Numbered from the stretch's first letter, positions 1-58,264 are shown. The stretch is DNA of 64,000 nucleotides from Tubulanus polymorphus (GCF_964204645.1 NC_134034.1:7886962-7950961); one strand, 5' to 3'. Notes: generated from the sequence alone by a model not told the origin. Made by a program: numbers and translations.

Positions 1-44
1 ACTCATTTTTATAGTCAAAATATATGAAATTAAAAGATGCTGTT

Positions 45-263
45 TTAATCCTCTAAATCATTTTCTAAATTAACTTTTTTATTCTTTCTATTTCTGTGAT
101 TGTTTCCATTTAACTTCTTTAATTTTTTACTCAATTTATTATTTTCATTCATCAAATCTTTTGAAATATTTTCATAGTAAAAGTATAATGCCGCCAATAT
201 TAATCCTCCTGCTACAAGATAATGTTTCAAATCACTTTTCCCAGTTGGGATGAAACCATCCAT
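45..263 (-). CDS. Small single-TM protein (72 aa) of element E0
   Basis: Hydrophobic LVAGGLILAALYFYY then basic/coiled tail. Near-identical paralogue at 29035-29247, both intact. Starts at TAAATAAATG. Confidence 0.65.
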   Translation of the reverse strand: MDGFIPTGKSDLKHYLVAGGLILAALYFYYENISKDLMNENNKLSKKLKKLNGNNHRNRKNKKVNLENDLED

Positions 264-282
264 TTATTTAGGAGAAAATTTC

Positions 283-753
283 AGCTGTCTTATCATTTCA
301 ACTGTTAAACAATTTAACATTTCAACTGTTAAACAATTTAACATTTCAACTGTTAAACAATTTATCATTTCAACTGTTAAACAATTTATCATTTCAACTG
401 TTAAACAATTTATCATTTCAACTGTCTTATCATTTCAACAGTCGAACAATTTATCATTTCAACTGTCAAACAATTTATTATTTCAACTGTCAAACAATTT
501 ATCATTTCAACTGTTAAACAATTTATCATTTCAACTGTTAAACAATTTATCATTTCAACTGTCGAACAATTTATCATTTCAACTGTCAAACAATTTATTA
601 TTTCAACTGTCAAACAATTTATCATTTCAACTGTTAAACAATTTATCATTTCAACTGTTAAACAATTTATCATTTCAACTGTCAAACAATTTAACATTTC
701 AACTGTCAAACAATTTAACATTTCAACTGTTAAACAATTTATCATTTCAACAG
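283..753. repeat. 24-bp minisatellite (ATTTCAACTGTYAAACAATTTAWC), ~19 copies, with a 120-bp higher-order duplication
   Basis: Units read directly; 481-540 is identical to 601-660. Explains the 8-aa periodic ORFs 250..855 and 413..745. Confidence 0.95.
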
Positions 754-807
754 TCTATTAGATATTTAAATCATTTAACTCAATTCAATAATTATAATGT
801 AGAATTG

Positions 808-1458
808 TTACTCTTTACACCAGTTTTTATGTTTAATTGTTTCATAATGCTTTGATTTATGTGATTTTAAATATTTACCTCCGCAATAACAATGCACTTT
901 TTCATTAGGATTGAATTTTCTAAATTCATCATCTAAATTACATTGAACTGCAATATCTTTAAATGATTTTTCATTATCTAATTCACATTGAATTCCAATA
1001 TTTGATGAATTTTCATTATAGATAATTTGTTTATTATCAAAATTGAAATAATATAATTGTCTTTTTTCAATTCTTAAGTTAATCAAATCATTGTAATCTT
1101 TTGAAAGTATTATATCATCATTTCTTTCATTGAAAGGAGTTTTAAGAATATTAATTATGTTTTCATCTAAAGTTCCTTTAAAATTTAAAACTGTATTGAA
1201 TATTTTAGGATTTTTAACGCCATTATCAAAAGTATCTACTAGTTCAGTAATTAAATATGTTTCATTTGATGATAATTGATTAATCATAGTAATATTATCG
1301 ATTTTATAATACCTTGCGGACACTAAATTTGTTGCTGAAATATAATTTTTAATGTAAAACTGTGAAAATGATTTATTGGTTTCATTGATTTCGATTTTAA
1401 AGTTGGGTTCTTCTTCTTCTTTCTTCATTTTTATAACAAAATTTTTATTAAAACTCAT
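808..1458 (-). CDS. Unknown protein with C-terminal CxC...H...H zinc-finger-like motif (likely start 1428)
   Basis: C-terminus EKSFKDIAVQCNLD...PNEKVHCYCGGKYLKSHKSKHYETIKH matches EKSFEDVGIQCNLD...PNEKVLCNCGKYYTRSNKSHHLKSKYH of 28416-28991. Confidence 0.65.
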   Translation of the reverse strand: MSFNKNFVIKMKKEEEEPNFKIEINETNKSFSQFYIKNYISATNLVSARYYKIDNITMINQLSSNETYLITELVDTFDNGVKNPKIFNTVLNFKGTLDENIINILKTPFNERNDDIILSKDYNDLINLRIEKRQLYYFNFDNKQIIYNENSSNIGIQCELDNEKSFKDIAVQCNLDDEFRKFNPNEKVHCYCGGKYLKSHKSKHYETIKHKNWCKE

Positions 1459-2338
1459 TCAAATATAAATATTCACTGTTTTAAATATGAATTATTTCAC
1501 TCACACTTTACTCACACTTTTAATGTTTAAAAATCTAACTCATACAAATATAAATATTGAAATATGTTTAAAATATAAACCATTTCACTCACACTTTACT
1601 CACACTTTCTTCTAGTGAGTAGAAAATGGAAAATAAATTCGAGTGTGTGAGAATTTATTTTTCATTTTTATGAGTTTTGCGACTAATTCAAGTAGAAATT
1701 GTTGTTATTTTAACATTTTGGAAAATTTCTCGGGCTCGACCTTTCGACCTTTGGTATGAAAGCCTATTACCCCTATTACTCCTACTACAGTGTCTGCACC
1801 AATGGGCCGGGACAAGCTGCGGGAAGCTATATCAAAACGACGAGGGGTGGATTATGGGTGTCCTCAATTGACGAGTAACAGCACCCAAATTAAACAATGA
1901 ATACCGAATAAAGTATATGATGATATCGCTTTATTTTACGAAAAACTACCTTTCCATTCCGGTTTCTTTCCAAAACGGAAGCGTGTTCACAAAAATTACA
2001 AAAGAAGAGGGCGCCACAATACAGTGTTAACATCCAGTGGAGCCACCCTATCACACTTTCCCCGGGACACGAAAATATCGTCCCCGATATCTGTCCGTAT
2101 GGTAAATATATTACATAACGTTCCTGCACACATAAAGCAAGCCAACATACAAATTGACAGGCGACAATTATATACGCTCTAAGCATACACAAAACTACTG
2201 GACTGAGGGTGAAAAATACCCTAGAATCAACTAATATCATCCCTTTTTTCCTAAAAATTTTGCGATTTTTTCTAAAATATATATACACAATATATCATAC
2301 AGCTTCGAACAAACGTTTTTAACAGCGACATACGGATT

Positions 2339-15013: not shown

Positions 15014-18000
15014 TGTGTTTGTTTGAGACAGTAAAGGTCAGTTAAGGTCGCGTAAAACTCGATAAAATCTTCAAGCGACACAGCGAACGATCTCCTTTCC
15101 TCCACAGCGAACGCTTACTCCGAATGTCAAGTGTGAGTCCAGCATACGGATAGGAGTGTGTTATATACTTGTTGTTCCGTCGTTGGCGGTCCGTGTTTTA
15201 GTGTAGACAGTTATGGAGAATATATTCTGAAACCGTACTCTAATAGTTGGCTCCGTTTTTGAAGTTCTACTGGATATTTCTCTCTAATATTATATTCCTG
15301 CGATTGATGAGATGAAACATATGGTCCCTCGGAGGCGGATGATGTAAAGATTTGATGTTTGGATGACTACAGATGACCAAAATTTGATGTTTAAGCGAAA
15401 ACACGTGAGTCGACGTCGTGTTAATTTCTGATGAAACGAAAAATTGATAAAAATCTAACTATTGATGCAGAATTGACTTGAATACGAATTAATACTGTCG
15501 AAAAATTGTGTGCTTGTAGTATTAATCTTAAAAAGTCAGTTTCGAGAAAAATAAAGCAGGGTGCTGATGAAAATTTGATGGATTGCTAATTACCGAAAGA
15601 AGACGATCGAGATTGGAATATACCGACCAGAAAGATACAAAATTTCGTAATTGACCATGAATGCTGAACAGAGAAGAGATTTTGAACTTAGAAAACGAAA
15701 AAGGACACCACTCAAAGCAAAAATCACAAGAGTGAAGTCCAAAATTGATGAAAAATTGTTAGATCAGAAGAAATTAGATGAGAAGGAATTACAAAAATGC
15801 AGATGGGCATTAGGGGAATTAGCTGATGCATTTAAAGCAATCTCAGAATTAGATACTGAGACATCTGAAATTATTCTGGAGATCGATGAAGTGGAGTACA
15901 ACAAATTTGTGTTAGAATCTGATGAATATTTAGAAGAATTGTCCCTCTTTATATTCAACCTTAAACAGATTTTAGAACAGCGAGAAAAAAGGCCGGCAGG
16001 TATTGACAAGAGCCAGGACAAGACAAGAAGACCACATCGACAAGTAGAATCGACCTCAGATGAAGAAAGCGACGAGAAACGTCATTCCGATACTTCAACG
16101 GAATCAGAAGATGATAAACCACAACGTAATGTTTTTCAGGGTTTGAAAAAACCAGAATTATCAACATTCGATCGTCAAAAGGAATACTACCATGACTGGC
16201 GAAACCAATTTGATGTTTTTGTAGGGAACACAAAGCTACCCTCAAAAACGAAGATGATGATGTTAAAAAACTGTTTAAAGGGGAAAGCATTGAAAATCAT
16301 TGGTAACCTTGGTTACACAAAAACAGAATATGAAGCAGCCTTGAAGAAATTGGAGCTGAAATTCGGTGGTGAAAAACGTCTCATTAGACAGCACTTAGAT
16401 AGATTAATGGAAACAAGCTCAATTACAGAAGGGAATAATAAGGCATTGGAAATATTTTCAGATAGACTATGTGACATGGTCACCAAATTATCCTTGAAAG
16501 GGAGTGGAGGAGAGTTCGAAACTGACAGTGCCTTATATATTCAAGTTCAAAAGAAAGTACCAGAAAAAATGTTGGTAGACTTTCATCGTCATGTTAAGAG
16601 TTCTGGAAAATCGGATGACCTCCAGGAATTTTCGAATTGGCTGGCAGAAGAGGTAGCATATTTACTTGAAGCTGAAGAAACAAAAGGGTCTAGTACTAGA
16701 ATTCCCAGAGAAAAAAAGACGGTCTTTCAGTACTGGTCTTATGAGAAAACAAGGTTGTTACATATGCGGAAAGAACCACAAGTTGACGGAATGTGATAAC
16801 TGGACGAAAATGGCTGTAGGTGATCGATGGGAACGTGCAAAAATGTATAGTATGTGTTTTAAATGTCTAAATAAAGGACATAGAAGTTGTCAGTGTAGAG
16901 AAACCAGATTCTCTGGATGCAGAATTGAAGGTTGTCAGGATAATAAGCGACGCCATACACACCTTCATCACCCTAAGGAATCTAAACATAATGCAAATGA
17001 AGAGCTGAACCCTCAGGAGGTGAACCCTCATGCAACACATCAAAGAGGTAGATGTCCTCCGGGGCGAGTAGCTTTGAGAATAGTGCCGGTTAGATTGGTT
17101 GGCGCTCGAGATCAAGAAATAATCATCAACGCCTTCCTGGATGACGGATCTGACTCATGCTATATATCTGATGATGTAGCAATTGCTATGGAGTTGGAAC
17201 GGGAGTCAGAACGCCATATAACAATGAATACTCTGGCTGGTGCGAGTGAATTGAAAAGTCGAAAAGTCAGTGTGAAACTGAAAAGTTTGGATGGGAAGGT
17301 TGATGTACTGCTTCAACCATGGGTGATGGACTCTATGTGTAAGGGTATCAAACCAATTGATTGGAGGCGACACGAGGCTGATTGGGGACATTTGAAGGAT
17401 ATTGAGTTTCCAAAACTACCGTCTACTGAAGTAGACATGTTGATAGGTGCAGATCAACCGGAATTGATGGCGGCCATTGAATAACGTCGTGGTGATGTAG
17501 GGGGTCCAGTGGCCCGGAAAACCCCACTGGGCTGGACAGTGATTGGAAAAGTTTCAAATGGATTTAGTGAAAACCAGAGTTTTACGACAACTCATGCGTA
17601 TAGAACTGAAGTTAGGTCCTTCGATATAAGAACTGATGATTGCTTGAGAAAGATCTGGGATCAGGATCTAGATTGCGGAAACCTCCATTAAAAAAGTCGG
17701 AGATAGATATGAAGTCCAAATTCCCTGGAAAGAGGAGAAGAGGTATTTACCGAATAATTTTGAAGATGCTAGTAAACGCCTGATGATGCTGGAAAAACGG
17801 TTTTTCAAAGACGAGGAGATTGCTCGACGATACAGAGATGTGTTTATGGCGAACGTAGAGAAAGGTTATTTGCAGAAAGTGTCAGATGTTGACTTAGAGA
17901 AAAATAGTAGCTGGTTTCGACCACACTTTCCAGTCGTTCGTGAAGATAAGACAACAACAAAAGTTCGCATTGTACATGATTCTGCTGCCAAAACTGGAAA

Positions 18001-18682
18001 TATGAGTTTGAATGATGTTATGATGAATGGCCCTAATCTACAGAATAACATAGTAGAAATATTGATTATGTTCCGAACAAAACCGGTGGCATTGGTAGGG
18101 GATATTAAGGAGATGTTTTCTCAGGTCCAAATGTTTGAAGATGATCGAAGGTACCATCGATTGTTATGGCGTGATGATACACACTCGCCAGTTGAAACTT
18201 ATGAAGCAACTAGATTGATGTTTGGGGACAAGGCTTCGCCATTTCTGGCACAGTTTGTTTTGAGACATCATGTAAACTGCAGTGAAGAAAACCCAAGAGT
18301 GTCTGAAGTTATTCACAAGCAAACCTATATGGACGATTTAATTACATCAGTGGAGAATGTTGTGGATGCGACCACTCTAAGAAGCGAGTTATCATCTGTA
18401 TTATCTGCTGCAGGATTTGATGTAAGACGATGGTGTAGTAATGTTATGGCTGTTTTAGATGGCTTACCTCTTGGAGATATTGAGGATTGCTTGAAGATAG
18501 TTGACAAAGACAATGCAAATATGGAGACTTTGGCTGTACGATGGTTTGCAGTGGGAGATTACTTGACGTACTCAACTCCGGCTAGTTGCGGTAGGCGTGG
18601 AGTCCCGACAAAGCGTAGTCTGTTGAGTTGTATTGCCACACTCTTTGATCCACTGCAGTATTTGGCACCAGTTGTTATACCC
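15014..18682 (+). mobile_element. BEL/Pao LTR retrotransposon, 3'-truncated (LTR end 15319, PBS 15322, gag-pro-RT 15651-18682)
   Basis: PBS TGGTCCCTCGGAGGCGGAT after ...AAACA; DUF1759-like gag; CYICGKNHKLTEC/CFKCLNKGHRSCQC knuckles; protease LDDGSD; RT KVRIVHDSAA, GDIKEMF, YMDD; LFDPL. LTR start is a guess. Confidence 0.9.
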
Positions 18683-19278
18683 ATCAGCATCTAGGACGTC
18701 TTCTTCAAGCGTCAAGACTGCAACCAGTTCATCATTCAAAACATCGATCTGATTCACTGTAGCGTCAATCTCCAACAGGACGCACTTCAGCTCCTCGGGT
18801 CTAGCGCTTATCTCGATCAAATCATCGGCTTTTTGACACTGGCGAGTCAGAACGCCCTTTCTTGCACCACGGGTTCGACGGAGTTTCTTCAGCTGGGCTT
18901 CTATTTCGTTTGTCGACATCTATCTGGCTCGAGGGACCAAAAATGTGGAATACGCGACCACCAGTGAAACTGACAACGACGACGACGACAGAAAACTAGA
19001 TGTCCAGCTGGAGAGAGATCTTTATTTGACTGCCCAGTACAAATTCTACACAGGTTTATATACAGGCAAAAATCATGAAGTATTAAAATAGCTTTTATCA
19101 AAATAGTGCCGGTTTAGGGTTTTTAACAATATAATATACTAGGTAACCGATCAATTTAGAGAGGACTGTATGGTAGGTTTTAGCCAAATGCTATGAATTA
19201 GAGTTCAACAATTGGATTAAATAAACACAATAAGATCAGAAGTTACAACCGAGGAATATTCAATAAATGTCTCTAACA
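18677..19278 (-). mobile_element. 5' end of a second BEL/Pao element: LTR 19278-18944, PBS 18939-18922, gag start 18919
   Basis: Minus strand reads TGTTAGAG...CA with TATA and AATAAA, then TGGTCCCTCGAGCCAGAT and gag MSTNEIEAQLKKLRRTRGARKGVLTR. The LTR edge interrupts the E2 ORF exactly at 19279. Confidence 0.85.
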
Positions 19279-20618: not shown

Positions 20619-21932
20619 TTAAAATTTAAAATATAATATTCCTCCAATTACAATTCCTGTACAAGATATAGCTAATTTAGTATTTTCATGAGATTTATTA
20701 TCATTATAAGTTTTAATTATATCATGTTGAATAATATCAGTTTTCATATTTTCTGATGAATTGTAATATTTTATTTTAGAATCATTGATTAATTTGATAT
20801 TCTTTTTTTTTAGTTTCAGTTGATTGAATATGTTTTTTAATTTTTTCACCTTCCATTAATTTTGGAGCAGTAATAATCTTTTTATTTATATCATTTAATC
20901 CAAACTTATTATATATTGTTGCAGTTTTAATTAGATTATTATAACCAATTATATTTCCCATCTTTAATATTAAATCATCAGAAATAATTAATAAATTAGG
21001 TCCTATACAATAATTTAATCTTACATGTGATTTATCTAAATAATTTTGATATCTTATAATGTTTTCTGGAATTGATCTATTTTCATCATTATGAATGAAA
21101 TCTTCACTTTAAATTGTTTTTGTGTATCAAATGATGTATTTAAATTTCTAATTATTGGGGATCTTGTTTCAACTTGCGCACCTAGAATACATATCAAATA
21201 AGTTCTAATTTTCGGATTGATTTATTATTTGTATACCAGCTTTAGTAAATCCTTCACTATTTTCGAAAATAAAATAAACCCAACCATTATTATTTTCTTG
21301 TTTTAAATTATCATAGAATTTCGGTAATTTATTGAAATTTAATGTTTCTAAATCCTTAGTTTCTATTTTACCATAACCTAATTTATTATTATAGATATTA
21401 AAAAAAGTATCAGATGGTATGGGAAGTGCACAATATTCTGCAATCTTTTTAGGGCAAGGAGGTGATCTTATTGTTCCAAGTTTTGTTCTAAAATCAGAAT
21501 GGGTCTCTTATTCATTTAATAAAGGGGTCTCTTATTCATTTAATATCAATCTTATTTGAAAATAAGTATGAAATCTAAATAAACTTTGAATCAATTTATA
21601 TTTTAAATTATTCAAATGATCATTCCAACTAATTCCACATCCTGTTGTTGCACAAAAATCAGCAAAATTTAATTGGTTCTGCCATTACTTCATATTAGAT
21701 TTTAATAAACATTGTTTTTCATCTTTCGATTTTCTAAAATTAATTAAATATACATGAAATATATTTTTCATCTTTGCATTAAAATTATCAGTTTCAGCAA
21801 AATAAATATCTAAATTAATTAATGAATTCAAAACAAAATTTCTATATGTGATATTTTTATTAAAATCTATTGCTGGAATATTATATTAATTGATTTATTA
21901 TATTGAAAAGCTTTTGGAAAACTATCTACCAT
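20619..21932 (-). pseudogene. Unknown ~430-aa protein with C-terminal TM (E2), candidate structural protein
   Basis: Fragments WQNQLNFADFCATTGCGISWNDHL, FRFHTYFQIRLIL, ILGAQVETRSPII, LNYCIGPNLLIISDDLILKMG, terminal LAISCTGIVIGGILYFKF. ATG at 21932 in TATAAATG; several stops/frameshifts. Confidence 0.6.
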
Positions 21933-23816: not shown

Positions 23817-24170
23817 TTATTCGAAATCTATTTCATGGTGCCCTTTTTCATTCTTACCTTTATATATGAAATAGAAATCTCCAGAACATAATTCTTCTAA
23901 ATCTTCACTTGATAATCTATGAAATCTATCCGGTAAATATGTTCTGAATTTATATTTATTTCCTTTTAATCCTTCATATTCTAAGTGGATAACTAATTTA
24001 TCTCCATATTTGTTAGTAACTGTATCAATATTAGTAATTAAATATTTTTTATGAATTGTTAGTTCATTTAACTTCTTAAATTTATAATCTACAGATTTAG
24101 CATTTGTGATATCTTTTATTCTATCTAGAAATGATTTGTTGTTCTCACTTTGTGCTTGTTTACTCTCCAT
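23817..24170 (-). CDS. 117-aa protein next to PolB, possible OB-fold ssDNA-binding protein (E2)
   Basis: Intact. KYLITNIDTVTNKYGDKLVIHLE...FRTYLPDRF looks beta-rich; the function is inference. Confidence 0.5.
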   Translation of the reverse strand: MESKQAQSENNKSFLDRIKDITNAKSVDYKFKKLNELTIHKKYLITNIDTVTNKYGDKLVIHLEYEGLKGNKYKFRTYLPDRFHRLSSEDLEELCSGDFYFIYKGKNEKGHHEIDFE

Positions 24171-27100
24171 TTTAATAACGTATTTTTTATTAAAATTTGA
24201 TTAACATGTAATAATCCTTTTCATAATCTCATTCTCTTTTGTTTCTTCTCTTTTAAATTTTAAGTATTCATCTAAATTGCAACCATACGCGACTGTATGA
24301 ATTCCATCATCTAAAGTATATCTTTTATCATCGAAAGGAATCAAATTTATCCTCTCTATCTCTTCAATAAACATTTCGTCTTCTGATCTTAAACATTTCA
24401 TCTTATGTTTTCTAACTTCTTCATTGAATATACAATTGATGTAATCTTTGAAATGAATATTCTTTTCTACTACGCTTTTGGTAATTCCTTTTAACTTTTT
24501 AGCTTCATGTTCCTTAGTTCTATAACTATACATTTTAGATCGAATTCCAATGAACTCTATCATTTCTACACCTCCTAACTCATCTTTGAATTTACCGGGC
24601 ACCGTTTTATTATCATTGTTAAACATTGTTCATGATCTTTAGGATAATTACTCAAGTCGAAATGATGTTTTAATGTTTTTAAATCATCTGTTATATTATT
24701 AGTTTTTATCTTTAATATGTAACTGTCGGTATCAAAATATTAGATTTCTATATGCTTTTCTCCAAAATGAGGTTGTAATACGTTATAGTAAAATTCATAC
24801 ATAAGTAATTTTGATATTTCTAAAACTGAAGCACCAACATAAATTGGTTTATTTAATTTCATAGAAGTTCTCTTCATTTTAACTGCAGCTAAATTTTCAT
24901 CAAATATTCTGTAACCGATAAATTTAGGATATGTTTGTAAATGTCTAATTCTTTTACCATTGCTAACTAACTCAATATCATTTCTATTTCTGATATTCTC
25001 ACAAGTTTTTCCATAGAATTCATTAACTTGAAGAAATCTTTTTCGAAATCTGTTTTAGCTTTAGTTCTCTGTTTGGTGTTAAAATCTATATATTTTTCTA
25101 ACCATTTAGATTGACTGAATGAAATATATCTATGTACTTTTTTAGGATCATTCCTTGATTCAAATAGAATTTTAACATCCGATAATGCACTACATAATTA
25201 TATTTATCTTCCTGAGTTACCATCAACTTTTCTGTATGAATATGATTTTCAAGTTTAATTCTTTTTTGATAATTTGATAATTCTTCATGCGTTAAAGTTT
25301 TATGTTCGGGGCAGTATGCTAGATTTCTAGATTTAAATTTTTTATCTTCAGGATATTCTAAATCTACAACAAAAAAGTAACCAGTATCTGAATCATCTGC
25401 AATATCTAGAATTCTTTTCTTCCAATCAAATTTCTCAATTTGTAAAAACTTCAGTTATTTGAAATACTCCATAAGGCTGAGGCTCCATCATTACCCAACC
25501 ATATAAATTATTTGCATCTATATATAATAACATATCCAGGGATATCATTTACATTGAAATATCTATCACCTAATACACCTGAAACACCTCCTCTTATAGA
25601 TTTTTCACATAATAATAATTGATCTATATTTGTTAACAAATCCATTTTATACCTGTAAATTTCAAACCACAGTCCCAAGTTAAACCTGGTGATGAATAAC
25701 AATGACATGGATCAACATTAAAATATTTTAGATTAACGTCTCTAAACCTTTCATATATATTAGCTAATAATGATACATCTGATTTTAGATATAAATCTAC
25801 TAATTGTCCATGATTTTTCATTCCAAAATGATTCCAAATATTCAATGTTCTAATATATACTTCATTTTTAACATATTCATTTTTTAATTCATCACAAAAT
25901 TGTTCTTTTAATAATTCAGTTATGTTGAAATCATTATGCGATTTATAAAAAACTATATGGAATTGCTCCATTGTATCTCATTAATTGAAAATCATCATTA
26001 TTTGGATAGTGTTGTTGTAATATTTTTAATTCATCATCAACTAATGATTTTGATAAATTATCTAATGAACTAAATCTATATGAATCTATAAATCTTAGGC
26101 ACCCAAATTGGAAAGATATATAATTCTCAAATGTTTTAGCTAACATTTTAAATTTATAAGTTGGTATTTTATCTTTTGATCTATTTGAATTTACTCTTTC
26201 TATTTCATTATTGATTTCTTCTATTTTATGGCACAGTTGCTTGGTGAATAAATGTGCATCATACCCTGATAAATTATGAAATATAACTGAAACAAAGTTC
26301 ATTTTCTTTGCATGTAAGTAACAATTCTCATGCGCCGCACCTTTAAACTTTCGATTCAAATGATCATGGTCTCTTACTTTTTTATCTTTTAGATTAAATA
26401 TCTTTTCACAATAATAACATTTATCTGCAAACTCAAATTCGTCTTTATCTTCTTCGTTCATAATTATTTCTTTATTTGTATCTAATAGTTTACTAAATTT
26501 GATTTCATACTCAATTGATAAGTCACAAAAATGATTTATAACATTTTCATTTCTATAATGATAATATTCACTTTTAATTAGTTCTGGATAATCAGATTTT
26601 ATATATAACCCGAAAGCTGCAGCACTTTGACGAATCTTTTTAATAGTATTTGTTATTAGAGGATCTGAATAATCAATTACATCATTTTCATTAGAATTTA
26701 ATTTCTTTCGTTTATAATATATTTCTTTTCTATCTTGGTCAGTTAATTCTTTATTTAGTGATTCAAAATCTCCATATATTACAAATGGTACTTTATTCTT
26801 GTAATCATATTTTTCAAATTCTTATATTTTATCCTTTTCATTTGGTAAAACTATTTTACAATAATCATGATTTTCACATAATTGTTTATGATTTAATAAT
26901 GCACTTTCGGTTCTGAATTTAGTTATACATTTTCTACATAGATATATTTTATTATCAAAATCATTTTCTGATTTGAAAAATAAATCAATTCGTTTAATCC
27001 ACGTATAATGATTCTCATTATATAATATATCTATAACATCATTTGAATCATAATCTTTTGGTAAGTATAGTGGTTCTAATGTATAATGTTTCATATTATT

Positions 27101-28085
27101 ACCTTTTGTTCTTGGTAATTTGACTAAATCAAATACATTTATATTTATATTATTATCTCTTTCTATTTTTGGGATATTTTTAATGCTAACAGGATAACTG
27201 CCTATCTTATAATTATTTTCAAATGGTTTATAATTTGATACTCTACAAATATTATCAGTTGGAGGATGTAAGCAACTAATTATTGACCATAGAAAACATT
27301 TATCATCAGAATTTTGTACATTTATAACAGCATTAGTTTTAAATGGTAATTTGATATAACTTGATCCATTAATGTTATCATGTTTATAATATAATAAATT
27401 ATTTTCATCAATTGGTTTTGATTTAGTTACCTTATTATATTTTGTGTTATAAACATGTTAAGTCATAGATATTATTTCATTGAATATTAAACCAGATCCT
27501 TCAAAATATTTCTCTTCTATTTTACTTTTTATTTCATTATAACATTTATCTAATTTATCATCTAATTGTTTTTTTGAATTAATATGTTGTGAATGAGAAT
27601 TTATATTATATATTGGTTTATCTTCAGATTTTAAAAATGTTACCTAAACTGATATACTAATCTTAGGGTATTCTACACCAGTAATTATTTTTATAATATT
27701 TTTCATATTTTCTAAATGTTTTTTATTTTCTTCTAATGTTTTACCTTAATGAAATTTAAATTCAATGGCAGCTCAGTAATAGGGAATATGGGGGTTCAGA
27801 TCAAAGGTCGTAAGGTCGAAAAATAAATTCTCGCACACTCGAATTTATCTTTCGACCATCCAACCTTTGATCTGAACCCCCATATTCCCTATTACTTTAA
27901 GTTTAAATGTGTTAAATTTTTGATTTTAACATAAAAAGTACGAGTAATTAACAAGTGAAAACTTGCCTCGAGAAAACAGTTAATATTTATATTTTTATGT
28001 GTTAAATTCTTATCTTAACATAAAAGTAACGAGGAATTAACGAGTTGAAGAAAATATCAATTTGAATAAAAAATTTGATATTAAA

Positions 28086-28379
28086 ATGGAAGCAAATAAG
28101 TACTACTGTCCGACATGTAAAATCAATATAGATAAATCTAAAAAATCGAGACACAATAAAACTAAATCTCACTTAGAGAATAAATTAAAGTTAAAATATA
28201 AAGATGATATATTAGAAACTAAATAAGATGAATTAAAGAATGAAAAAGAAATATATAAATGTGATACATGTAATCAATCATTCAGTGAAAAAAGATATCA
28301 TAAAGAACATTCTAAGTCTAAAACTCATATTAGAAATATGAATAATGAGTTGAATGATATAAAAAGTAACGAGTATTGA
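28086..28379 (+). pseudogene. Stand-alone double zinc-finger ORF (E1), copy of the PolB N-terminus; inverted copy at ~29828-30163
   Basis: MEANKYYCPTCKINIDKS..H.....H..YKCDTCNQSFSEKRYHKEH....H, closely similar to 30556..30945; one in-frame stop in this copy, frameshift in the other. Confidence 0.75.
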
Positions 28380-28415
28380 AGAAAATATCAATTTTAATAA
28401 AAAAATGACTAATAA

Positions 28416-28991
28416 ATGAATGAACAGATACCACAGTTTAAAGATATCGATTTAAATGAATTAGAAAAATATTTTACAATTAACAATTTCATTCCTATTA
28501 AAGATTTGATTAAAACTGCGCGTCTTCGTTTTCAAGTGAAAAATATTACTGAATTAATGTTTAAAAATCATTATCTAATAATAGAGTTATCGAATGATAA
28601 AGATAAAATCTTATTCAATACAATAATTCCAAAATTCACAACATTTCATGAAATAGATAAACATTTAATAATTACAGATGAAATGCAAACACTTTTTGAT
28701 AATGAAAATTCACATAAAACAATATTTTTACACTTACGTTATTGCCCTTTCAGAGAATGCTATGTAATATTTTTCAGAGTAGAAGAAAAAAGATTAACCC
28801 CCGCCATTCCAATTGAAAAATCATTCGAAGATGTTGGAATTCAATGTAACTTAGACAATAAAATCGAAACACCTAAATATGAACCTAATGAAAAAGTGTT
28901 ATGTAATTGTGGAAAATATTATACTCGAAGCAATAAATCACACCATCTTAAATCAAAATATCATAACTCAAAAATAATGATTCAACTCTAA
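28416..28991 (+). CDS. Unknown 191-aa protein with C-terminal zinc-finger-like motif (E1)
   Basis: Intact ORF, TAAATG start, C-terminus homologous to 808..1458. Confidence 0.7.
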   Translation: MNEQIPQFKDIDLNELEKYFTINNFIPIKDLIKTARLRFQVKNITELMFKNHYLIIELSNDKDKILFNTIIPKFTTFHEIDKHLIITDEMQTLFDNENSHKTIFLHLRYCPFRECYVIFFRVEEKRLTPAIPIEKSFEDVGIQCNLDNKIETPKYEPNEKVLCNCGKYYTRSNKSHHLKSKYHNSKIMIQL

Positions 28992-29034
28992 TTATTTAAT
29001 ATTTTATAAACTGTTTAATTTTTCTTTTAATTAA

Positions 29035-29247
29035 ATGGAAGATTTTAGCATTCCAATTGGGAAAAGTGATTTGAAGCATTATCTTATAGCAGGAGGGTTA
29101 ATATTGGCTGCATTATATTTCTATCATGAAAATATAAGTAAGGATCTAATGAATGAAAATATTAAATTGAGCAAGAAATTAAAGGAGTTAAATGGAAATA
29201 AAAATAACAATAAAAAAATTAATGATTTAAAAGAATTAGAGGATTAA
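29035..29247 (+). CDS. Small single-TM protein (70 aa, E1)
   Basis: Paralogue of 45..263; TAAATG start. Confidence 0.65.
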   Translation: MEDFSIPIGKSDLKHYLIAGGLILAALYFYHENISKDLMNENIKLSKKLKELNGNKNNNKKINDLKELED

Positions 29248-29288
29248 GACAGAATCTTTTAATTTAATTTATTTTATATATTTTAACT

Positions 29289-29513
29289 ATGAAAATGAGT
29301 GAAAATATATTGAACTTATTACATCTGATATATAAAAATCAACAGAATATGAAATCAATTATTATGCTTACAGGTTTATTTTCTTTCTCAGTTTACAGTT
29401 TGAAACAGTTGTTAGAATTCTATGATAATTGCAAAATTAAATATACAAAATTAAAAGATAACGTAAATTATATTTCAGATCGAATAAATAATATTAAGTG
29501 TTGTGAAATTTGA
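29289..29513 (+). CDS. Small hydrophobic protein (E1), 3' end cut by the inversion junction
   Basis: MSENILNLL...IIMLTGLFSFSVYSL; homologous start region at window positions 1-45 (minus strand). Confidence 0.5.
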   Translation: MKMSENILNLLHLIYKNQQNMKSIIMLTGLFSFSVYSLKQLLEFYDNCKIKYTKLKDNVNYISDRINNIKCCEI

Positions 29514-31128
29514 AAGGGCAATAACGTAAGTGTAAAAATATTGTTTTATGTGAATTTTCATTATTAAAAAGTGTTTGCATTTCATCTGTAATTATTAAAT
29601 GTTTATCTATTTCATGAAATGTTGTGAATTTTGGAATTATTGTATTGAATAAGATTTTATCTTTATCATTCGATAACTCTATTATTGGATAATGATTTTT
29701 AAACATTGATTCAGTAATATTTTTCGCGCAGTTTTAATCAAATCTTTAATAGCAATGAAATTTTTAATTGTAAAATATTTTTCTAATTCATTTAAATCGA
29801 TATCTTTAAAATGTAGTATCTGTTCATTCATTTATTAGTCATTTTTTTTAAATTAAAATTGATATTTTCTTCAGTACTCGATACTCTTTTATTGTTTAAC
29901 TCATTATTCATATTTCTAATATGAGTTTTAGACTTAAAATGTTCTTTATGATATCTTTTTTCACTGAATGATTGATTACATGTATCACATTTATATATTT
30001 CTTTTTCATTCTTTAATTCATCTAATTTAGTTTCTAATATATCATCTTTATATTCTGACTTCAATTTATTCTCTCAGTGAGATTTAGTTTTATTGTGTCT
30101 TGATTTTTGAGATTTATCTATATTGATTTTACATGTCGGACAGTAGTACTTATTTGCTTCCATTTTAATATCAAATTTTTTATTCAAATTGATATTTTCT
30201 TCAACTCGTTAATTCCTCGTTACTTTTATGTTAAAATAAGAATTTAACACATACAAATATAAATATTCACTGTTTTCTCGACGCAAGTTTTCACTTGTTA
30301 ATTACTCGTACTTTTTATGTTAAAATCAAAAATTTAACACATTTAAACTTAAAGTAATAGGGAATATGGGGGTTCAGATCAAAGGTTGGATGGTCGAAAG
30401 ATAAATTCCGTCGAGTGTGCGAGAATTTATTTTTCGACCTTACGACCTTTGATCTACCCCCATATTCCCTATTACTCAGCTGGTCCAATATCACTTTTAA
30501 ATGCTTCGGTTATTTCTATTTCTTTTTTTATTATCTAATGAATTGATATAATTTCTTACATCTTCCATGTATGGTCTTTTATTTTATTGTTTAATATATT
30601 TTTTATTCTTTTAATTGTCTTCTGTTTCTCAGCATTATCATTATTAAAATAATCTTCACCTATAATATCATTATTGATATTTGTAATATGACTTTTAGAT
30701 TTTAAATGTTCTTTATAATATCTTTTGTCGCTGAATGATTGATTACATGTATCACATTTGTATATTTCTTTTTCATTCTTCATTTCCTCTAATTCAGTTT
30801 CTAATATATCATCTTTATATTTTAACTTACATCTATTCTCTAAATGTGTTCTAGTTTGATTATGTCTTGAGTTTTGGGATTTATCTATATTGATTTTCCA
30901 TGTTGGACAGTAGTACTTCTTATTTGCTTCCATTTTAATATCCAATTTTCTATTAAAATCGATTTTATATGTTATTCATTATATATATGAACATTTTAAG
31001 AGTAAATAGGAATAAGTTGTTCTAGATTAAAGGTTGAGGGGTCGCATTCATAAAAAATGAAAAATTTATCATTTTTTATGAATTCGACCTCTCGACCTTT
31101 GATCTAGAACAACTTATTCCTATTTACT

Positions 31129-34156: not shown

Positions 34157-34660
34157 AGGAAAATCGATAGAAAGGCACGTCTCGGTCCCAAAATGCCGTT
34201 CAACGCGAGAAAAGCCGTTTTCTCGTCGATTTTCGTTGTATCGGAATAATGACTAATTCGATATGCAAAAGCGCTCAAATCGACGGGAAAGCCACATTTC
34301 GGCCCAAAAACACCGTTCAGCGTGAGAAAAGGCGTTTGCTCGTCGGTTTTCGTTCTATCGGAAAAGTGATTAAGTCGAGACGCAAAAACGCTCAAATCGT
34401 CAGGAAAAGCACATTTCGGACCGAAAACGTCGTTCGTCGCGAGAAAAGTCGTTTGCGCGTCGATTTTTCGTTCTTTCGGAAAAATGACAAAGTAGAAATT
34501 CAAAAACGCTCAAATCGCCAGGAAAGCGCATTTCGGCCCGAAAATCGATATCTGCAAAAGCGCCCTAATCGCCAGGAAAAGCGAACACAGCGTCCAGCGC
34601 GAGAAAAGTTGATTCTCGTCGATTTTTCGTTCTATCGGAAAAATAACAAGGTTGATATGC
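34157..34660. repeat. Diverged ~117-bp satellite-like tandem repeat, ~4 units
   Basis: AAARCGCTCAAATCG recurs at ~34268, 34385 and 34502; GCGAGAAAAG..CGTCGATTTT..CGGAAAA in each unit. Confidence 0.8.
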
Positions 34661-35233
34661 AAACTTTATGTTTTTACGTTAAACCCAAACAGTTTCTTTC
34701 AATCGGTGTCTCTATTCAAAATTAAAGTTCAAGTTGGAAAATTACCAATTTGAATCTTTTGGATTGACTGCTTGTTGGTTGCATCGTGATGAAGTAAACA
34801 TCCAATGGCTTCACTCTAGAACAGATTTCTCAAATTACATATCGCTTATTTTTTTTAATTAGAAAAAAATCCAATCAGAGTGACTTTTTACGGGAAACCC
34901 TCGATATATGTTCGAAATATCTGGCTTCCGAGTATATGTATATGCCATAACAGTAAGACCCTCTACATAGGTTTGTTGCTTTAAAGATTAAATGAACCGC
35001 GTGTTTATGCTCCTTCCTAATAATTTTCAATATCACCCCTGTAAACAAGCTTTCAAAAGTGTTAACAGAATAGCAAATGTATAGCGGATACATTAACAAT
35101 CAGTAAAATCCAAGCAAGTTCACGAACCGTGCCTCGTCGTGACAGCCGCTGGCTCCGTTGGTTTCCCAGTCGGTAAAAGTTTGCATTTTTTTTATATATA
35201 TATTCACGGACTGTTGATGATATAAAATCATAA

Positions 35234-44963: not shown

Positions 44964-47900
44964 TGTGACATTACTCAATATGTTTTCATAGTAATTAGTT
45001 CTAGTCAGCGCTCATCAATAATTAATTAATGTCTCTCAAATATGTCACTAGGTTTTAGTTTGTGAGTCCTGATGTCTACAACTTCTCTGACACCTAGTTC
45101 CCACATCAAACTAAGTTATGATAATCATTCTCATTCCGGGATGCAATAAAGATTGTACATATAAGGTTTAAATGCCTTGTTCCTGATGGATGGAATCCTG
45201 TACCGCTGGTGTAAATGCTAGTTCCGCAGCCAGCCTGCCGATACAACAACCAGCCGGTTACAGATGGCGGAGAACCCAGATTTAAGTCCTAGTGACTTAT
45301 GCAAGTATCGATGAAGCTGCTGATATATGGATAATGACTAGAACGTCTACCACAAAGAGAAGATCGTAGTCAACTACACCCGTGACGACAACACAGTGCT
45401 GATCGGATGGTGGATACTACGCATTGCGGTTAACTTGTCAACCATTGGTAATATAATTGCATCTTCATCTCAAATTCATGGTCAAATTATGAGTATAGAA
45501 AGTTATAGGCGTTTGAATTTAGATGCGCTACCGTGTAATTGAGCGGCTTAATGTGTATATATCTCAGTTTTCGATTGTTTAATTCAAGATATTTCCTAGT
45601 TATCCACTCCCTACGACAATCAACATCAGTTTCATACAATTATTAGGGAATATAACTCATATAAATTATCTTAGTTCGTCTAGTGGGATATCTAATTTTG
45701 TCGCGGCGATCTATATTTTTACAAAACCTCTATCTTTAACATTCAATATAGATAGCTTTCCATTTTTTACGTTGACGTATATAACTATAGTATAAAGATG
45801 AAGCGCCTACATAGTAGTAAAGATGTTTGCCACAAAGAAGCATCTCGATTACGTGTATCAACGCGGTTGATATAAGCTTAGTTTCAGGATTGAATCGGAA
45901 TATTATAAACATTAATATTGATAAACTCACCCAACGAGCATTAGTCGATACAGGCGCATCGATTTCTTGTATTGCTAGGTCAACGTTCGAAAGTTGTATC
46001 AAAAATCCCATATATATTCATTCGGATATAAACATTATCAGAGGAGTGTGGGGAAGCACATTCAGTGATTGGTAGAATTGATGTACCCATTTGCACTCAA
46101 TCTCATATAATAACGCACAAGTTTTATGTATTCGATAGGCTATACACAGATGTTATTCTAGGACTGGATTTTTTGGAAGAAAGCAATGTAAACATTAACC
46201 TTGCATCAGGCACAATTGAATTTAAAGATTCTTAGGAATAACAAGAGCTGTACAGAAATAAAGCTAAAACGGTTAACAGGATTATCTCACCAAATACTAA
46301 AGAAATAGTTCAGATAAGTGCCGATACGTTGGCGGAAGGTTCATTGGTTGTTTTTGAACCATACAACCACAAGTTATTTAATAAATTTTTAGGTGGAAGT
46401 AAAACATTATGCAAAATCGCAGACGGTAAAAATTTTCGCTACTAATGTGAATCCTACTAATGAACCGATTGAAATTTCAAAAGATTATGTGCTTGGATTT
46501 GCATACAATGTAACTGACGACGATTGTTTTGATTTTGCAGATGACAGTACTAGTGCAAACATTTTCTCCGTTGATACTGAAACGCCACGTGATTATGATG
46601 AAAAAATTAAAATAGCGGAGATTTTAGGCATAAAACTTCCAGCAAACTCCCTTGGAGGATTGTCCCTTGAACAAAAGGAGAGATTAATGTATCTAATAAA
46701 CCATTTTACAGTTGCTAGCCGCCATTTTGTTAGGGTACTTTTGTCCCGTATTGTTGGGTCATTTTTTTCTCTTTTTTAAAAACTATCCGTGATGTGTATT
46801 GTATCATATTTCATCTGTCGATGGATGGATTTTGACAACTTCAGCAACATTCAAACCGCGTGAATCTCTAGTTTTCAGTTATGTTAAAATCATTCCTCAA
46901 ATTTACAACAATGCGACATGAGAGCGATATAAAAATTGGTGCTCAGTTTTTGCCGTGCGCATAGAAATCCAGGGTACTGAATTTGAAGTTCGTTATTTTC
47001 AGAAATAATTTTCTAAAAAATCCAAACATTTCAAGCACTGTGCGCATAAATGCCCCCTTTTAGGTGAACTTTGAAATTTTAAGATATCTTGCCTAGTTTT
47101 TTTCCTATGGCTCTTTAACTGCAGCGCGTGTATTGTCATTCCGAGATTCGGCGCTGTTTTCTTTGCGTGTATTTCAGTATATGGGTGTTATTTCTTCATT
47201 TTCACTACACTTGTCTCTACGGAAAATGGTTTTAATTGTTGGTACGAGTATCAGGTTTAAATATCACGTCGTTTATGCAATATAATAGATCGGAGACATT
47301 AGAGATGTTGGGGTTTAAGGGATTTTTCTGACCAGTTTTAGCAGCGAGACTGAGCGGCATTTTGATCACGCATTCGAAGTTGCGCGCGGGAAGAGAATAT
47401 ATGGGCCTATATCGAGATGGAAGAAGAAAAGAAATATAGCACTCAAAATCGAGTATGATGACCATTTAAATCAGTAGTCTATCAATAAATTTACATAAAA
47501 ATCTACTGAAATTAGATGGATGGAGAAGTGGTCAAAAAGCTGGACAAATGGGGTGGGGCAAATATTCAGCTACTTTCTATGAATACTTTCTATTAAGTAC
47601 ACTCAAGATTGATTAGATTGGGAAAAAAATATAGGAAAACGTTTTCTTTTTTTCGAATGTCAGACGCAGGTGATAAAAAGTAAAAAGTGACATCTACCAT
47701 CACCAAAAACGCAAGAAGTGTGTGGATTGCATTTACAACAAAAGAGTGATATTTTGGGTTTTCTTGGGTGCATTTTCGTAAGCCTCTGCCTGCCGTAAAA
47801 GCGGTTACCATTACAGCCATTACGAACTAGCGCCGGAGAACGGAATACAGTATTAATGCCGTAATATTTAAACCTGATACTCGTACCAACAATTAAAACC

Positions 47901-50256
47901 ATTTTCCGTAGAGACAAGTGTAGTGAAAATGAAGAAATAACACCCATATACTGAAATACACGCAAAGAAAACAGCGCCAAATCTCGGAATGACAATACAC
48001 GCGCTGCAGTTAAAGAGCCATAGGAAAAAAACTAGGCAAGATATCTTAAAATTTCAAAGTTCACCTGAAAGGGGGCGTTTATGCGCACAGTGCTTGAAAT
48101 GTTTGGATTTTTTAGAAAATTATTTCTGAAAAAAACGAACTTCAAAGTTCAGTACCCTGGATTTCTATGCGCACGGCAAAAACTGACCACCGATTTTTAT
48201 ATCGCTCTCATGTCGCATTGTTGTAAATTTGAGAAATGATTTTAACATAACTGAAAACTAGAGATTCACGCGGTTTGAATGTTGCTGAAGTTGTCAAAAT
48301 CCATCCATGGACAGATGAAATATGATACAATACACATCACGGATAGTTTTTAAAAAAGAGAAAAAAATGACCCAACAATACGGGACAAAAGTACCCTAAC
48401 AAAATGGCGGCTAGCAACTGTAAAATGGTTTATTGGATGTAATAGGTCAATATTTGCTTGTAACTTACAAGAAATCGGCAAAACTTCATTAGTTACGCAT
48501 AAGATAGAAACAACTGATGACAACCCTATAATTCAAAGACCTTATCGCAAAAGTCCACACTTGAGACAGGTAGAGAACGACTTGGTTAACGAACTGTTAG
48601 ATTGATCTTATTGATCCAACTGATTCTGTTTTCAATAATCCTGTGGTTTTGGTCAGAAAACCAGACAATACGTATAGGATTACTATTGATTTTAGAAGAC
48701 TGAATTCCGTAACACAATCATTTCCACTATCTCATTTTGATGATGTATTTGACACTATAGCCGATGCTAAACCCATGATATTTAGTGAATAAGATCTTTA
48801 TTCAGGATTTCACCAGATACCGTTACATGAAGAATCGCGTCATAAAACAGCTTTTCAAACAAGCAGGTCTAACTGCGAAACCGACTAAGCGTGAATTTGC
48901 AGTCCCAGACATTGAATATCTGGGTTATATGTTATCAGCTGAGGGTCTGCGTACTTGCAAAAAGAACATCGAAAAGGTCAACAGCTTTCCAGTTCCTTCT
49001 AATGTCAAACAATTACGAAGTTATCTAGGATTAACAAATTTTTACAGGAAATTGATTCAAAATTATGCATCAATAGTTTCTCCCTTGAATGCTTTGAACT
49101 CTAAGGATGTGAAATTCAAATGGACCCCTGATTGCCAGAAAGCTATTGATACGCTTAAACAGAAATTAACTAGAGGTCCAATTTTGATATTCCCTGATTT
49201 CAATTCTCGTTTCTATTTCTCAGTTGACTCTTCAGACTATGCTATCGGTTACGTTTTGTCCCAGAAAAAGAATAATTTAGAACATGTTATTGGATATGGT
49301 GGCCGCGCGTTACGTGTAAACGAAAAGAAATGGCATATTAGTGATAAGGAAGGACCTAGCTTTGATTGAAGGAATTTAGAATTTTCGTCCCTACCTTATT
49401 GGAAATGAATTCACCGTGTATACTGATAACACAAGTTTAACGTATATTCATGAAAACCAACTAAATAAACGTATAGGACGTTGGGAATTGGCTCTTCAAG
49501 CGTATAATTTTTCTGTTAAACACCGACCGGGTAAGAAAAATGGCAAATGCGACGTTTTAAGTAGACGAGATCATGATAAACCTCCTCCTCCTAGAACTGA
49601 TGATCCTTCACAAGAGACTGTTTTCACAGCGATGAAAAATGGAACTCAGTCTTATGAAGTCGTGTTTGATTATACTAGCCCCATGGTGGCTGAGTTAACT
49701 CCTGATACTTATAAGGAGATTGAACTGATTATATAAGTCACTCACAGAGGAATTGCCCTGAAGTACGTCACATGTTGGAACATAAGTTAGATCCATCATA
49801 TGCTGTCAACGATGAAAAACTGTTTCGTAAGCTAAGTTGGATAGCCGATCAATATGGCATTATCGATGGCATGTTATATTATTTGTATACGCCTAGAGTT
49901 ATTGGTATTCCAAAAGCCGAGAAGGTCATCCCAGTTCTTGAAGTTCCTAGATCCTTACGGTCGGAAATATTGAAATCTGACCACGATTCATTAGTGGGAG
50001 GTGGCCACCAGGGTCGAGATCGTCTTTATGGTGTTTTACGCAATAAATATCATTGGGATTCCATGTATGAAGATTGCGGGAAATATGTTTCTACTTGTCA
50101 GAATTGCCAACAGGTCAAACGGAATTATCATAGTCATCCAACACCCCTACAACCATTACCAATTGAAGGCTCATTCTCCAGATGACACATTGACTTTCTT
50201 TGCAATCTTCCGGAGACCCCTGATGGTAATAAGCATATCCTACTCGTGGTGGATGT
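44964..50256 (+). mobile_element. Decayed Ty3/Gypsy element in the myostatin intron (LTR 44964-45262, PBS ~45265, pol), 3'-truncated
   Basis: TGTGAC...GTTACA with AATAAA, then TGGCGGAG; protease ALVDTGAS; IDFRRLN; YLGLTNFYRKLI; RNase H VDSSD..YTDN; integrase HDSLVGGGH..CQNC. No gag recognised. Confidence 0.88.
46697..48432. mobile_element. Foldback-type non-autonomous DNA element, ~570-bp TIRs with a ~600-bp non-coding core
   Basis: 46695-47264 is the near-perfect reverse complement of 47864-48434; removal restores Gypsy LMYL-IGCNRSIF. Confidence 0.92.
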
Positions 50257-58028: not shown

Positions 58029-58264
58029 TATTGTGAACCACAGCAACTGATAGATCGCGCAAATCGTGTGGTGTCTTCTTAACCCAGATTGAAACTGCGC
58101 AAACTGCGCTGAGACGCCGCACCGTGACGTCACAGCTCTATCGCTATGCGCGGAAAGATGGCGGCACCCACGCGAGATTACAAATTATTATTTACTCATT
58201 ATTTAATTTATGATTTGTTTAACTTTCAATAAACGAACAAAAAATCTCAAGGTGGAGTTCCCCT

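What the first reader, a model, noticed from the sequence alone, without database searches (positions are those of the whole stretch)
27775..30476. Copy-back/defective-interfering-like satellite genome integrated inside a relative's polymerase gene
Seen: E1 is the first ~1.7 kb of an element end followed by an inverted copy of its first ~970 bp. The junction at ~29511 cuts through two ORFs. It has no polymerase, integrase or capsid, yet has clean AGT..ACT ends and CAGCTC/CAGCTG flanks. The same cargo genes lie at the end of E0. Established: Polintons make ~6-bp TSDs and replicate by protein-primed strand displacement. Inference: a template switch made a panhandle mini-genome that was replicated and integrated in trans, disrupting E2's PolB.
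Basis: partly seen in the sequence, partly recalled or inferred. Interest (0 to 1): 0.8.

Follow-up and report, generated by a model that had tools for sequence, protein, structure and literature searches.

The report
Fold-back mini-Polinton inside relative's polymerase
A 2.7-kb piece of a virus-like jumping element (Polinton) carries the same end twice in mirror image and sits inside a decayed relative's polymerase gene; it likely arose when a replicating copy folded back on itself and was likely inserted by a helper's integrase, but only this one copy has been seen and loss of the middle of a longer element is not excluded.

Summary
The structure is real: 27775-30476 has 978/966-bp inverted arms (25 substitutions in 959 columns, neutral pattern), true family tips, a 5-of-6 target duplication, and splits a Polinton DNA polymerase gene at about codon 154. 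The central junction cuts two ORFs that run on in relatives. New here: both arms are the same 'cargo' end, and each holds a captured 94-codon zinc-finger start of the polymerase, so the element is not a normal left end plus right end. Best reading (0.5): one end was duplicated on replicating, extrachromosomal DNA (direct copy-back, or a hairpin-primed inverted dimer trimmed in the middle; the family has 122-270-nt terminal palindromes) and a helper integrase inserted it. Close rival (0.35): a longer same-ended element inserted and lost its centre in the chromosome. 'Satellite' and 'interfering' are unsupported: no listed contig of 110 laid from four runs (two samples) crosses the junction, and no genome or long reads were available. 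This scan has noted fold-back mini-Polintons and terminal palindromes before in other genomes (unchecked notes). New variant of a known kind; interest 0.4.

The parts
27769..27774 (.). Left copy of the 6-bp target duplication (CAGCTC)
27775..30476 (.). E1, 2702-bp same-ended non-autonomous Polinton derivative
27775..28752 (+). Left arm (978 bp)
27775..27896 (.). 122-nt terminal palindrome, paired to the last base; predicted -49.8 kcal/mol, z -18 against base shuffles
27805..27818 (+). Two AGGTCG hexamers at positions 31 and 39 from the tip, same positions in E0, E2 and L004; likely origin or integrase-binding element (inferred)
28022..28085 (+). AT-rich leader repeat before the zinc-finger ORF (promoter-like, inferred)
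28086..28360 (+). Captured 5' part of the family DNA polymerase: two C2H2-type zinc fingers, residues 1-94 of intact relative P0002 (66% identity), with an in-frame stop in this arm
28362..28415 (+). Second copy of the leader repeat, joining the zinc-finger piece to ORF A
   Evidence: join bridged by X1 record 3
28416..28991 (+). ORF A, 191 aa, no family; only its C-terminal zinc-finger-like motif finds weak matches; distant homologue in E0
28753..29510 (.). Unique loop between the arms (758 nt)
29035..29247 (+). ORF B, 70 aa, hydrophobic segment then coiled-coil-like tail (read from the sequence); 75% identical to E0 copy
29289..29513 (+). ORF C, cut at the junction; its stop codon is supplied by the first bases of the right arm
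29504..29515 (.). Central junction: ORF C homology ends at 29509, one extra T at 29510, inverted ORF A starts at 29511; the word TGAAA stands on both sides, two bases apart
29511..30476 (-). Right arm (966 bp), inverted copy of the left arm with broken ORF A start and zinc-finger piece
30353..30476 (.). 124-nt terminal palindrome of the right end
30477..30482 (.). Right copy of the target duplication (CAGCTG)
24201..27774 (-). E2 DNA polymerase, residues about 154-1365, broken at several further places
30477..30933 (-). E2 DNA polymerase, residues 1 to about 154, with the zinc fingers
31001..31128 (.). E2 right tip, 128-nt terminal palindrome; abuts E3 polymerase at about codon 1035
1..1780 (-). 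E0 cargo end (tip at 1780): leader, ORF A homologue without zinc-finger piece, repeat ORF, ORF B; used as comparison

Best explanation
E1 is a 2.7-kb non-autonomous Polinton derivative with the same end in mirror image on both sides, which likely formed by fold-back on replicating extrachromosomal DNA and was likely inserted by a helper element's integrase into E2's polymerase gene. Shown: geometry, true tips, target duplication, arms of one age, absence of integrase and polymerase core, both ORFs cut. Inferred step 1 (older than E1): a switch between leader repeats put the first 94 polymerase codons in front of ORF A, giving an end of about 585 bp shared with the polymerase end. Inferred step 2: a strand copied 1736 nt in from that cargo end, turned back at 28752 and recopied the end (direct copy-back, about 0.3), or the 3' terminal palindrome primed itself, gave an inverted dimer, and its centre was lost unevenly before insertion (about 0.2). 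Inferred step 3: with two intact tips the molecule was a substrate for a helper integrase. It then decayed neutrally. It is best seen as a fossil of one defective genome, not as a satellite lineage.
For: Both arms hold leader + zinc finger + leader + ORF A start, whereas polymerase ends (E2, L001, L003, L004) run zinc finger into polymerase and most cargo ends run leader into ORF A (E0; joints skipping 333-360 nt in X1, X2, X3). Arm differences are neutral (2 synonymous, 13 non-synonymous including 2 stops, pN/pS 1.3; control E1 versus E2 zinc finger 11 and 19, pN/pS 0.33, p 0.005) and even along the arm (15 of 583 outer, 10 of 376 inner, p 1.0), so the arms were alike at insertion. Motif at positions 31 and 39 proves true tips. 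Target duplication 5 of 6, p about 0.0009. Integrase (rve, E 6.5e-9) lies in relative L002, none in the window. Terminal palindromes in E1, E2 and L004 with different letters. No shared TIR boundary at 29511 in relatives.
Against: No second copy: none of the 27 listed pieces (of 110 laid, longest kept) crosses 29510/29511 and no joint was listed, in at most two samples of one study; a one-off junction is what a chromosomal deletion also gives. The junction has no overlap and one extra base, which is not the clean microhomology of a template switch (TGAAA on both sides is only a weak hint). The data fit equally a longer same-ended parent. That ORF A-C lies opposite a polymerase in one parent element is inferred from shared tips, not seen. 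The first 190 bp of the arms have no substitution (p 0.007), which is unexplained. An earlier unchecked note (e1-7884016) found that a similar element in another genome was a centre-deleted copy of a larger palindromic family.
Confidence: 0.5

Rival explanations
1. A longer same-ended (palindromic or very long-armed) element was inserted here and later lost its middle in the chromosome, with one break in ORF C and the other inside the right arm. The 2.7-kb form was then never replicated or integrated as such.
For: Junction seen in no other listed contig; blunt join with one extra base fits end-joining repair; relatives' contigs would look exactly as seen if arms were longer; the region is full of truncated copies (E2 left end, E3, E4); earlier unchecked notes e1-7884016 and e1-8072260 describe centre-deleted palindromic elements elsewhere.
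Against: No such parent has been seen here; it still needs an earlier end-duplication event; the zinc-finger + ORF A join was bridged by only one listed contig (X1 record 3), so a large same-ended family is not apparent.
Confidence: 0.35
2. Simple internal deletion of an ordinary autonomous element whose normal TIR is about 1 kb or more and happens to include the start of ORF A.
For: Vertebrate Maverick TIRs reach 1,447 bp (mean 402; PMC8097293 section 7); 250 loose-end rows were not shown.
Against: Polymerase starts 196 nt (E2) and 819 nt (L004) from the tip with no ORF A before it; all 7 listed contigs reaching 29511-29513 continue as ORF A; the nearest whole relative found has a TIR of about 440 bp (L006, 38% polymerase identity).
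Confidence: 0.08
3. A normal element was inserted, and a later break in the chromosome was repaired by copying the left end over the right end.
For: The shared outer 310-585 bp offers the homology; the first 190 bp lack substitutions.
Against: The inner arm is not younger than the outer arm (2.7% against 2.6%); each arm has private changes against other family copies (X1 record 7 equals the right arm, X1 record 3 has left-arm letters at three sites; one search read).
Confidence: 0.04
4. Assembly artefact (fold-back chimeric read or mis-join).
For: No read or contig support for the junction was found; no long reads were available.
Against: Arms differ by 25 substitutions and 5 indels, both ends stop at true tips with a target duplication, and the flanks are collinear with intact polymerases.
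Confidence: 0.03

Closest known systems
Polinton/Maverick elements (adintoviruses); PMC8097293 passages and section 7, PMC8502044 passages, PMC3014272 passages
   Same: AGT..ACT tips, long TIRs, 6-bp target duplication; host element E2 and relatives L001-L004 carry a 1,319-1,365-aa B-family polymerase with an endonuclease VII-like region, and L002 an rve integrase.
   Different: E1 is 2.7 kb, not 13-25 kb, has no core gene, has two ends of one type, begins AGTAAT rather than (AGT)2, and ends in 122-nt palindromes. The polymerase here starts with two zinc fingers; the OTU domain described for adintovirus PolB was not tested.
Copy-back and snap-back defective viral genomes (definitions in PMC13506859 passages; AAV copy-back genomes mentioned in PMC11575299 passages)
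   Same: One genome end followed by its own inverted copy, panhandle with a unique loop, no replication genes.
   Different: Here a dsDNA element with a protein-primed-type polymerase, found integrated in an animal genome with a target duplication; no evidence of amplification or interference.
Terminal palindromes and nested insertions of endogenous virophages and PLVs of Halocafeteria (bioRxiv 10.64898/2026.07.28.741278, passages)
   Same: Palindromes at the tips next to the target duplication, proposed to prime replication as hairpins; elements nested in each other.
   Different: There the palindromes (52 nt in one subtype) go preferentially with non-pPolB elements of a protist; here 122-270-nt palindromes stand directly before the family B polymerase of animal Polintons.
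Hairpin and inverted-duplication derivatives of protein-primed linear replicons (yeast pGKL1, Neurospora kalilo, adenovirus left-end duplications) and non-autonomous Polintons in Repbase
   Same: Same-ended defective forms kept by a helper's polymerase.
   Different: Recalled only, from no call; searches did not retrieve papers on them, and the 2006 Polinton paper was not held. The plasmid and adenovirus forms are not integrated by an rve integrase.

Membership tests
Polinton/Maverick (autonomous) | Long terminal inverted repeats | tested here: met
   978/966-bp arms, 97.4% identical in aligned columns
Polinton/Maverick (autonomous) | 5'-AG..CT-3' tips with short end repeat such as (AGT)2 | tested here: inconclusive
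   AGT..ACT present, but AGTAAT rather than (AGT)2; same tip type in E0, E2, L004
Polinton/Maverick (autonomous) | 6-bp target site duplication | tested here: met
   5 of 6 bases, six-base overlap on uninterrupted copies
Polinton/Maverick (autonomous) | Protein-primed B-family DNA polymerase gene | tested here: not met
   E1 has residues 1-94 only. Family level: PF03175 in 4 of 25 aligned relatives, not in the three closest; weak in E3; no solved polymerase matched
Polinton/Maverick (autonomous) | rve integrase gene | tested here: not met
   No match in the window; present in relative L002 and 8 of 12 distant loci
Polinton/Maverick (autonomous) | Capsid, ATPase and protease genes | tested here: not met
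   E1's ORFs match no such Pfam family and ORF A has no full-length relative; no dedicated capsid profile was run
Non-autonomous Polinton derivative | Family tips and target duplication kept, core genes lost | tested here: met
Copy-back defective genome | Both ends derive from one end of the parent, with a unique loop | tested here: met
   Both arms carry ORF A start and the same chimeric join; loop 758 nt
Copy-back defective genome | Junction made by the polymerase turning back on its nascent strand | tested here: inconclusive
   No overlap, one extra base, TGAAA on both sides; cannot be told from a deletion in a longer same-ended precursor
Defective-interfering / satellite genome | Propagated as a lineage by a helper (several copies) | tested here: inconclusive
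   No listed contig bridges the junction in four runs, two samples; no genome held
Defective-interfering / satellite genome | Lowers helper replication | not testable with these tools
   No data

The most novel reading that the evidence does not exclude
Animal Polintons of this family have two ways to start DNA synthesis, a protein primer and self-priming 120-270-nt terminal hairpins, and so shed same-ended defective genomes that a helper replicates and integrates, preferentially into relatives' polymerase genes; E1 is a fossil of such a copy-back genome and one of a family.
Probability: 0.15. Interest if true: 0.7.

Novelty: new variant of a known kind. Interest (0 to 1): 0.4.

Why it matters
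Polinton replication has not been observed directly (own knowledge). A same-ended molecule with intact tips and a target duplication would be fossil evidence for an extrachromosomal, strand-displacement or hairpin-primed intermediate and for integrase acting in trans, and it makes a clear prediction: the same junction at other loci, or longer same-ended parents. The long terminal palindromes next to a B-family polymerase bear on how these elements prime. As a single decayed copy with an unresolved route, its weight is moderate.

Tried and rejected
No whole genome is held, so the genome-wide junction search could not be run. No RNA holder listed; X2-X4 held only 0.10-0.11 of the words and X1 0.30, so none is shown to carry E1, and absence of the junction is not proof. 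Summed contig depth shows no step at the arm boundary but is not a copy number, so it was not used. No listed piece bridged either E1 tip with its flank, and loose ends at 30479 in X2 and X4 (2 contigs each) may be paralogous polymerases rather than the empty allele. ORF A of E1 and E0 found no homologue of similar length; 18 weak hits to the C-terminal motif only; atlas hits at 0.90 were uninformative. Viral-contig scans with single proteins or the tip pattern found nothing; the alignment found 12 distant loci, none sharing E1 cargo. PDB searches gave only zinc fingers. Look-ups of earlier findings by sequence and nearby gave nothing. Paper searches: 'Polinton' + 'copy-back' 0 papers; 'Polinton' + 'defective interfering' 1 listing, not read; searches listed no title on same-ended Polintons (listings only; subscription papers and Repbase are not covered, and supplements of the papers read were not seen). 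Rejected: artefact, fusion of two diverged active elements (arm changes are neutral), late in-place conversion, and a normal 970-bp TIR.

Full report
Observation. Self-comparison of the window gives one inverted pair covering 27769-28752 and 29511-30482. The arms proper are 27775-28752 and 29511-30476, with 934 matches, 25 substitutions and five indels of 2, 4, 1, 3 and 16 nt; the unique part is 28753-29510. The element begins AGT and ends ACT, between CAGCTC and CAGCTG; at least 5 of 6 matches have a chance of about 0.0009. Aligned separately to the uninterrupted polymerase copies E3 and E4, the two flanks overlap by about six bases. An intact environmental relative (P0002, 1365 aa) maps residues 1-154 to 30933-30478 and 154-777 to 27772-25949, so E1 lies in E2's polymerase at about codon 154. 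That gene is broken at several other places too, so the order of damage is unknown.

Family. A 292-aa piece of E2's polymerase found 597 longer proteins, the best three 71-74% identical and 1,319-1,365 aa long. Of 25 aligned relatives 18 match Endonuclease_7 and 4 match DNA_pol_B_2; the three closest do not reach PF03175 and no solved polymerase matched. Metagenome locus L002 (78% nucleotide identity to E2's gene) carries an rve integrase; 8 of 12 distant viral loci match that integrase, and L006 has a TIR of about 440 bp. This is a Polinton/Maverick family. The integrase finds nothing in the window. Earlier unchecked notes call the host a ribbon worm; I did not test this.

The tips are true tips. 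Two AGG(T/G)CG hexamers stand at positions 31 and 39 from the end in E0, E1 left, E2 and L004 (29 and 37 in E1 right, which lacks two bases); the pattern has 3 matches in the window and 0 in 100 shuffles. E1's ends (122 and 124 nt), E2's right end (128 nt) and L004's end (about 270 nt) are palindromes paired to the last base, with different letters (z -15 to -19). E0's tip is not a full palindrome.

E1's arm is a chimera. After the palindrome and a leader come polymerase residues 1-94 (two zinc fingers), a second copy of the leader and ORF A. In E2, L001, L003 and L004 the zinc fingers lead into the polymerase. In E0 the leader leads straight to an ORF A homologue. Contigs of four public runs (at most two samples, one study; 1,726 records laid on 28760-30660) agree: one contig each in X1, X2 and X3 joins leader to ORF A, skipping 333-360 nt; contigs in X1, X2 and X3 join the zinc finger at 29901 to the polymerase flank; and one X1 contig bridges the zinc-finger to ORF A join (29823-29997). 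So the chimeric end likely exists outside E1, and E1 has two cargo-type ends, not a cargo end and a polymerase end. That the cargo end lies opposite a polymerase in one parent is inferred from the shared tip and leader.

The junction. Of 110 records laid on 29440-29580, 27 pieces were listed (longest kept); none crosses 29510/29511 and no joint was listed. Fourteen listed contigs follow ORF C to 29507-29509 and go on with other sequence; seven reach 29511-29513 from the arm side and go on in what looks by eye like the rest of ORF A (three loose-end rows were not shown). Both ORFs are therefore cut, and 29511 is not a shared TIR boundary. The join has no overlap and one extra T; TGAAA stands at 29504-29508 and 29511-29515, a weak hint of homology-guided joining. 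The runs hold 0.10-0.30 of E1's words, so they need not carry E1; absence says only that the junction is not an abundant form there.

Age of the arms. Within the two ORFs the arms differ by 2 synonymous and 13 non-synonymous changes, two of them stops (pN/pS 1.3), against 11 and 19 between E1 and E2 zinc fingers (pN/pS 0.33; p 0.005 against neutrality). Divergence is 15 of 583 outside and 10 of 376 inside the chimeric join (p 1.0). One X1 contig equals the right arm over four differing sites and another has left-arm letters at three sites (one search read). The arms were thus alike at insertion and decayed neutrally (K2P 0.027). This argues against an artefact, a fusion of two diverged active elements, and late conversion. 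The first 190 bp have no substitution (p 0.007), which I cannot explain.

Mechanism. Some event had to copy one end over the other. The terminal palindrome offers a second: a displaced strand's 3' hairpin would prime itself, as in the parvovirus rolling hairpin (PMC11575299, passages) and as proposed for Halocafeteria elements (bioRxiv 10.64898/2026.07.28.741278, passages), giving an inverted dimer whose centre is lost unevenly (about 0.2). In both, a helper integrase inserts the 2.7-kb form. The strong rival (0.35) is that a longer same-ended element was inserted and lost its centre in the chromosome; the contigs cannot exclude it, and an earlier unchecked note (e1-7884016) reached that kind of answer for a similar element in another genome. 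An ordinary element with a TIR of 1 kb or more is less likely (0.08), though vertebrate TIRs reach 1,447 bp (PMC8097293 section 7).

Comparison and novelty. The geometry fits the definition of copy-back genomes (PMC13506859, passages). Nested insertion of such viruses and terminal palindromes are in print for a protist, there mostly with non-pPolB elements. The anole survey noted an apparent absence of non-autonomous Polintons in that genome (PMC3014272, passages); C. elegans Polinton TIRs of 744 bp cause rearrangements (bioRxiv 10.1101/2024.01.15.575659, passages); PMC8502044 was seen as passages only. Searches for Polinton with copy-back gave 0 papers and with defective interfering one unread listing; the library lacks most subscription papers and Repbase, and I saw no supplements. 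Same-ended derivatives of pGKL1, kalilo and adenovirus, and non-autonomous Polintons, are recalled, not checked. This scan has noted fold-back mini-Polintons and terminal palindromes in other genomes.

Verdict. Observation confirmed; interpretation partly supported. E1 is a real same-ended, non-autonomous Polinton derivative and works like a copy-back genome in form, but replication as a satellite and interference are not shown. New variant of a known kind; interest 0.4.

Noticed in passing
window 31001-31128; 27775-27896; L004:185-456; L001:1-120: Long terminal palindromes paired to the last base in diverged members (z -15 to -19), directly before a B-family polymerase in E2 and L004; E0's tip keeps only an inner hairpin. 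L001 begins inside what looks like such a palindrome (by eye).
   Followed up: partly
window 1736-1780, 27775-27819, 31084-31128; L004:190-235: Two AGG(T/G)CG hexamers at exactly positions 31 and 39 from the tip in four elements; they recall a nuclear-receptor direct repeat (recalled, untested).
   Followed up: partly
window 31128/31129: E2's right tip itself abuts E3's polymerase at about codon 1035: two nested events, both in polymerase genes. The rest of E3 and E2's left tip are not in the window, so no target duplication can be checked.
   Followed up: partly
L004:543-596, 945-1033, 5102-5155; window 23817-24170: A leader repeat precedes each gene in L004, and a copy of the tip sequence lies between two genes; a 117-121-aa gene is upstream of the polymerase in L001, L003, L004 but downstream in E2. 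Gene order near the ends seems to be shuffled through these repeats.
   Followed up: no
window 29526 (run X1): One contig leaves ORF A 15 bases short of E1's fold point into 27 GC-rich letters; it may be another insertion or the small hairpin element of note e1-10418976.
   Followed up: no
window 46691-48438: A separate fold-back element with 587-bp arms at 97.6% identity, unrelated to E1 by blastn.
   Followed up: no
window 20782-21507: Broken E2 gene with a weak atlas lead to crAss_MUZ (PF25731, on 16-28% of cluster members, score 0.92-0.94).
   Followed up: partly
window 218-827 and 34161-34663: 24-nt tandem repeat inside E0's cargo region, and 117-nt repeats where E3's end would be.
   Followed up: no
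window 15657-19260, 4219-5601, 55890-57008, 58264-59415: BEL/Pao retrotransposon at E2's truncated left side, another LTR-type reverse transcriptase, a MULE remnant, and a fourth polymerase fragment E4.
   Followed up: no
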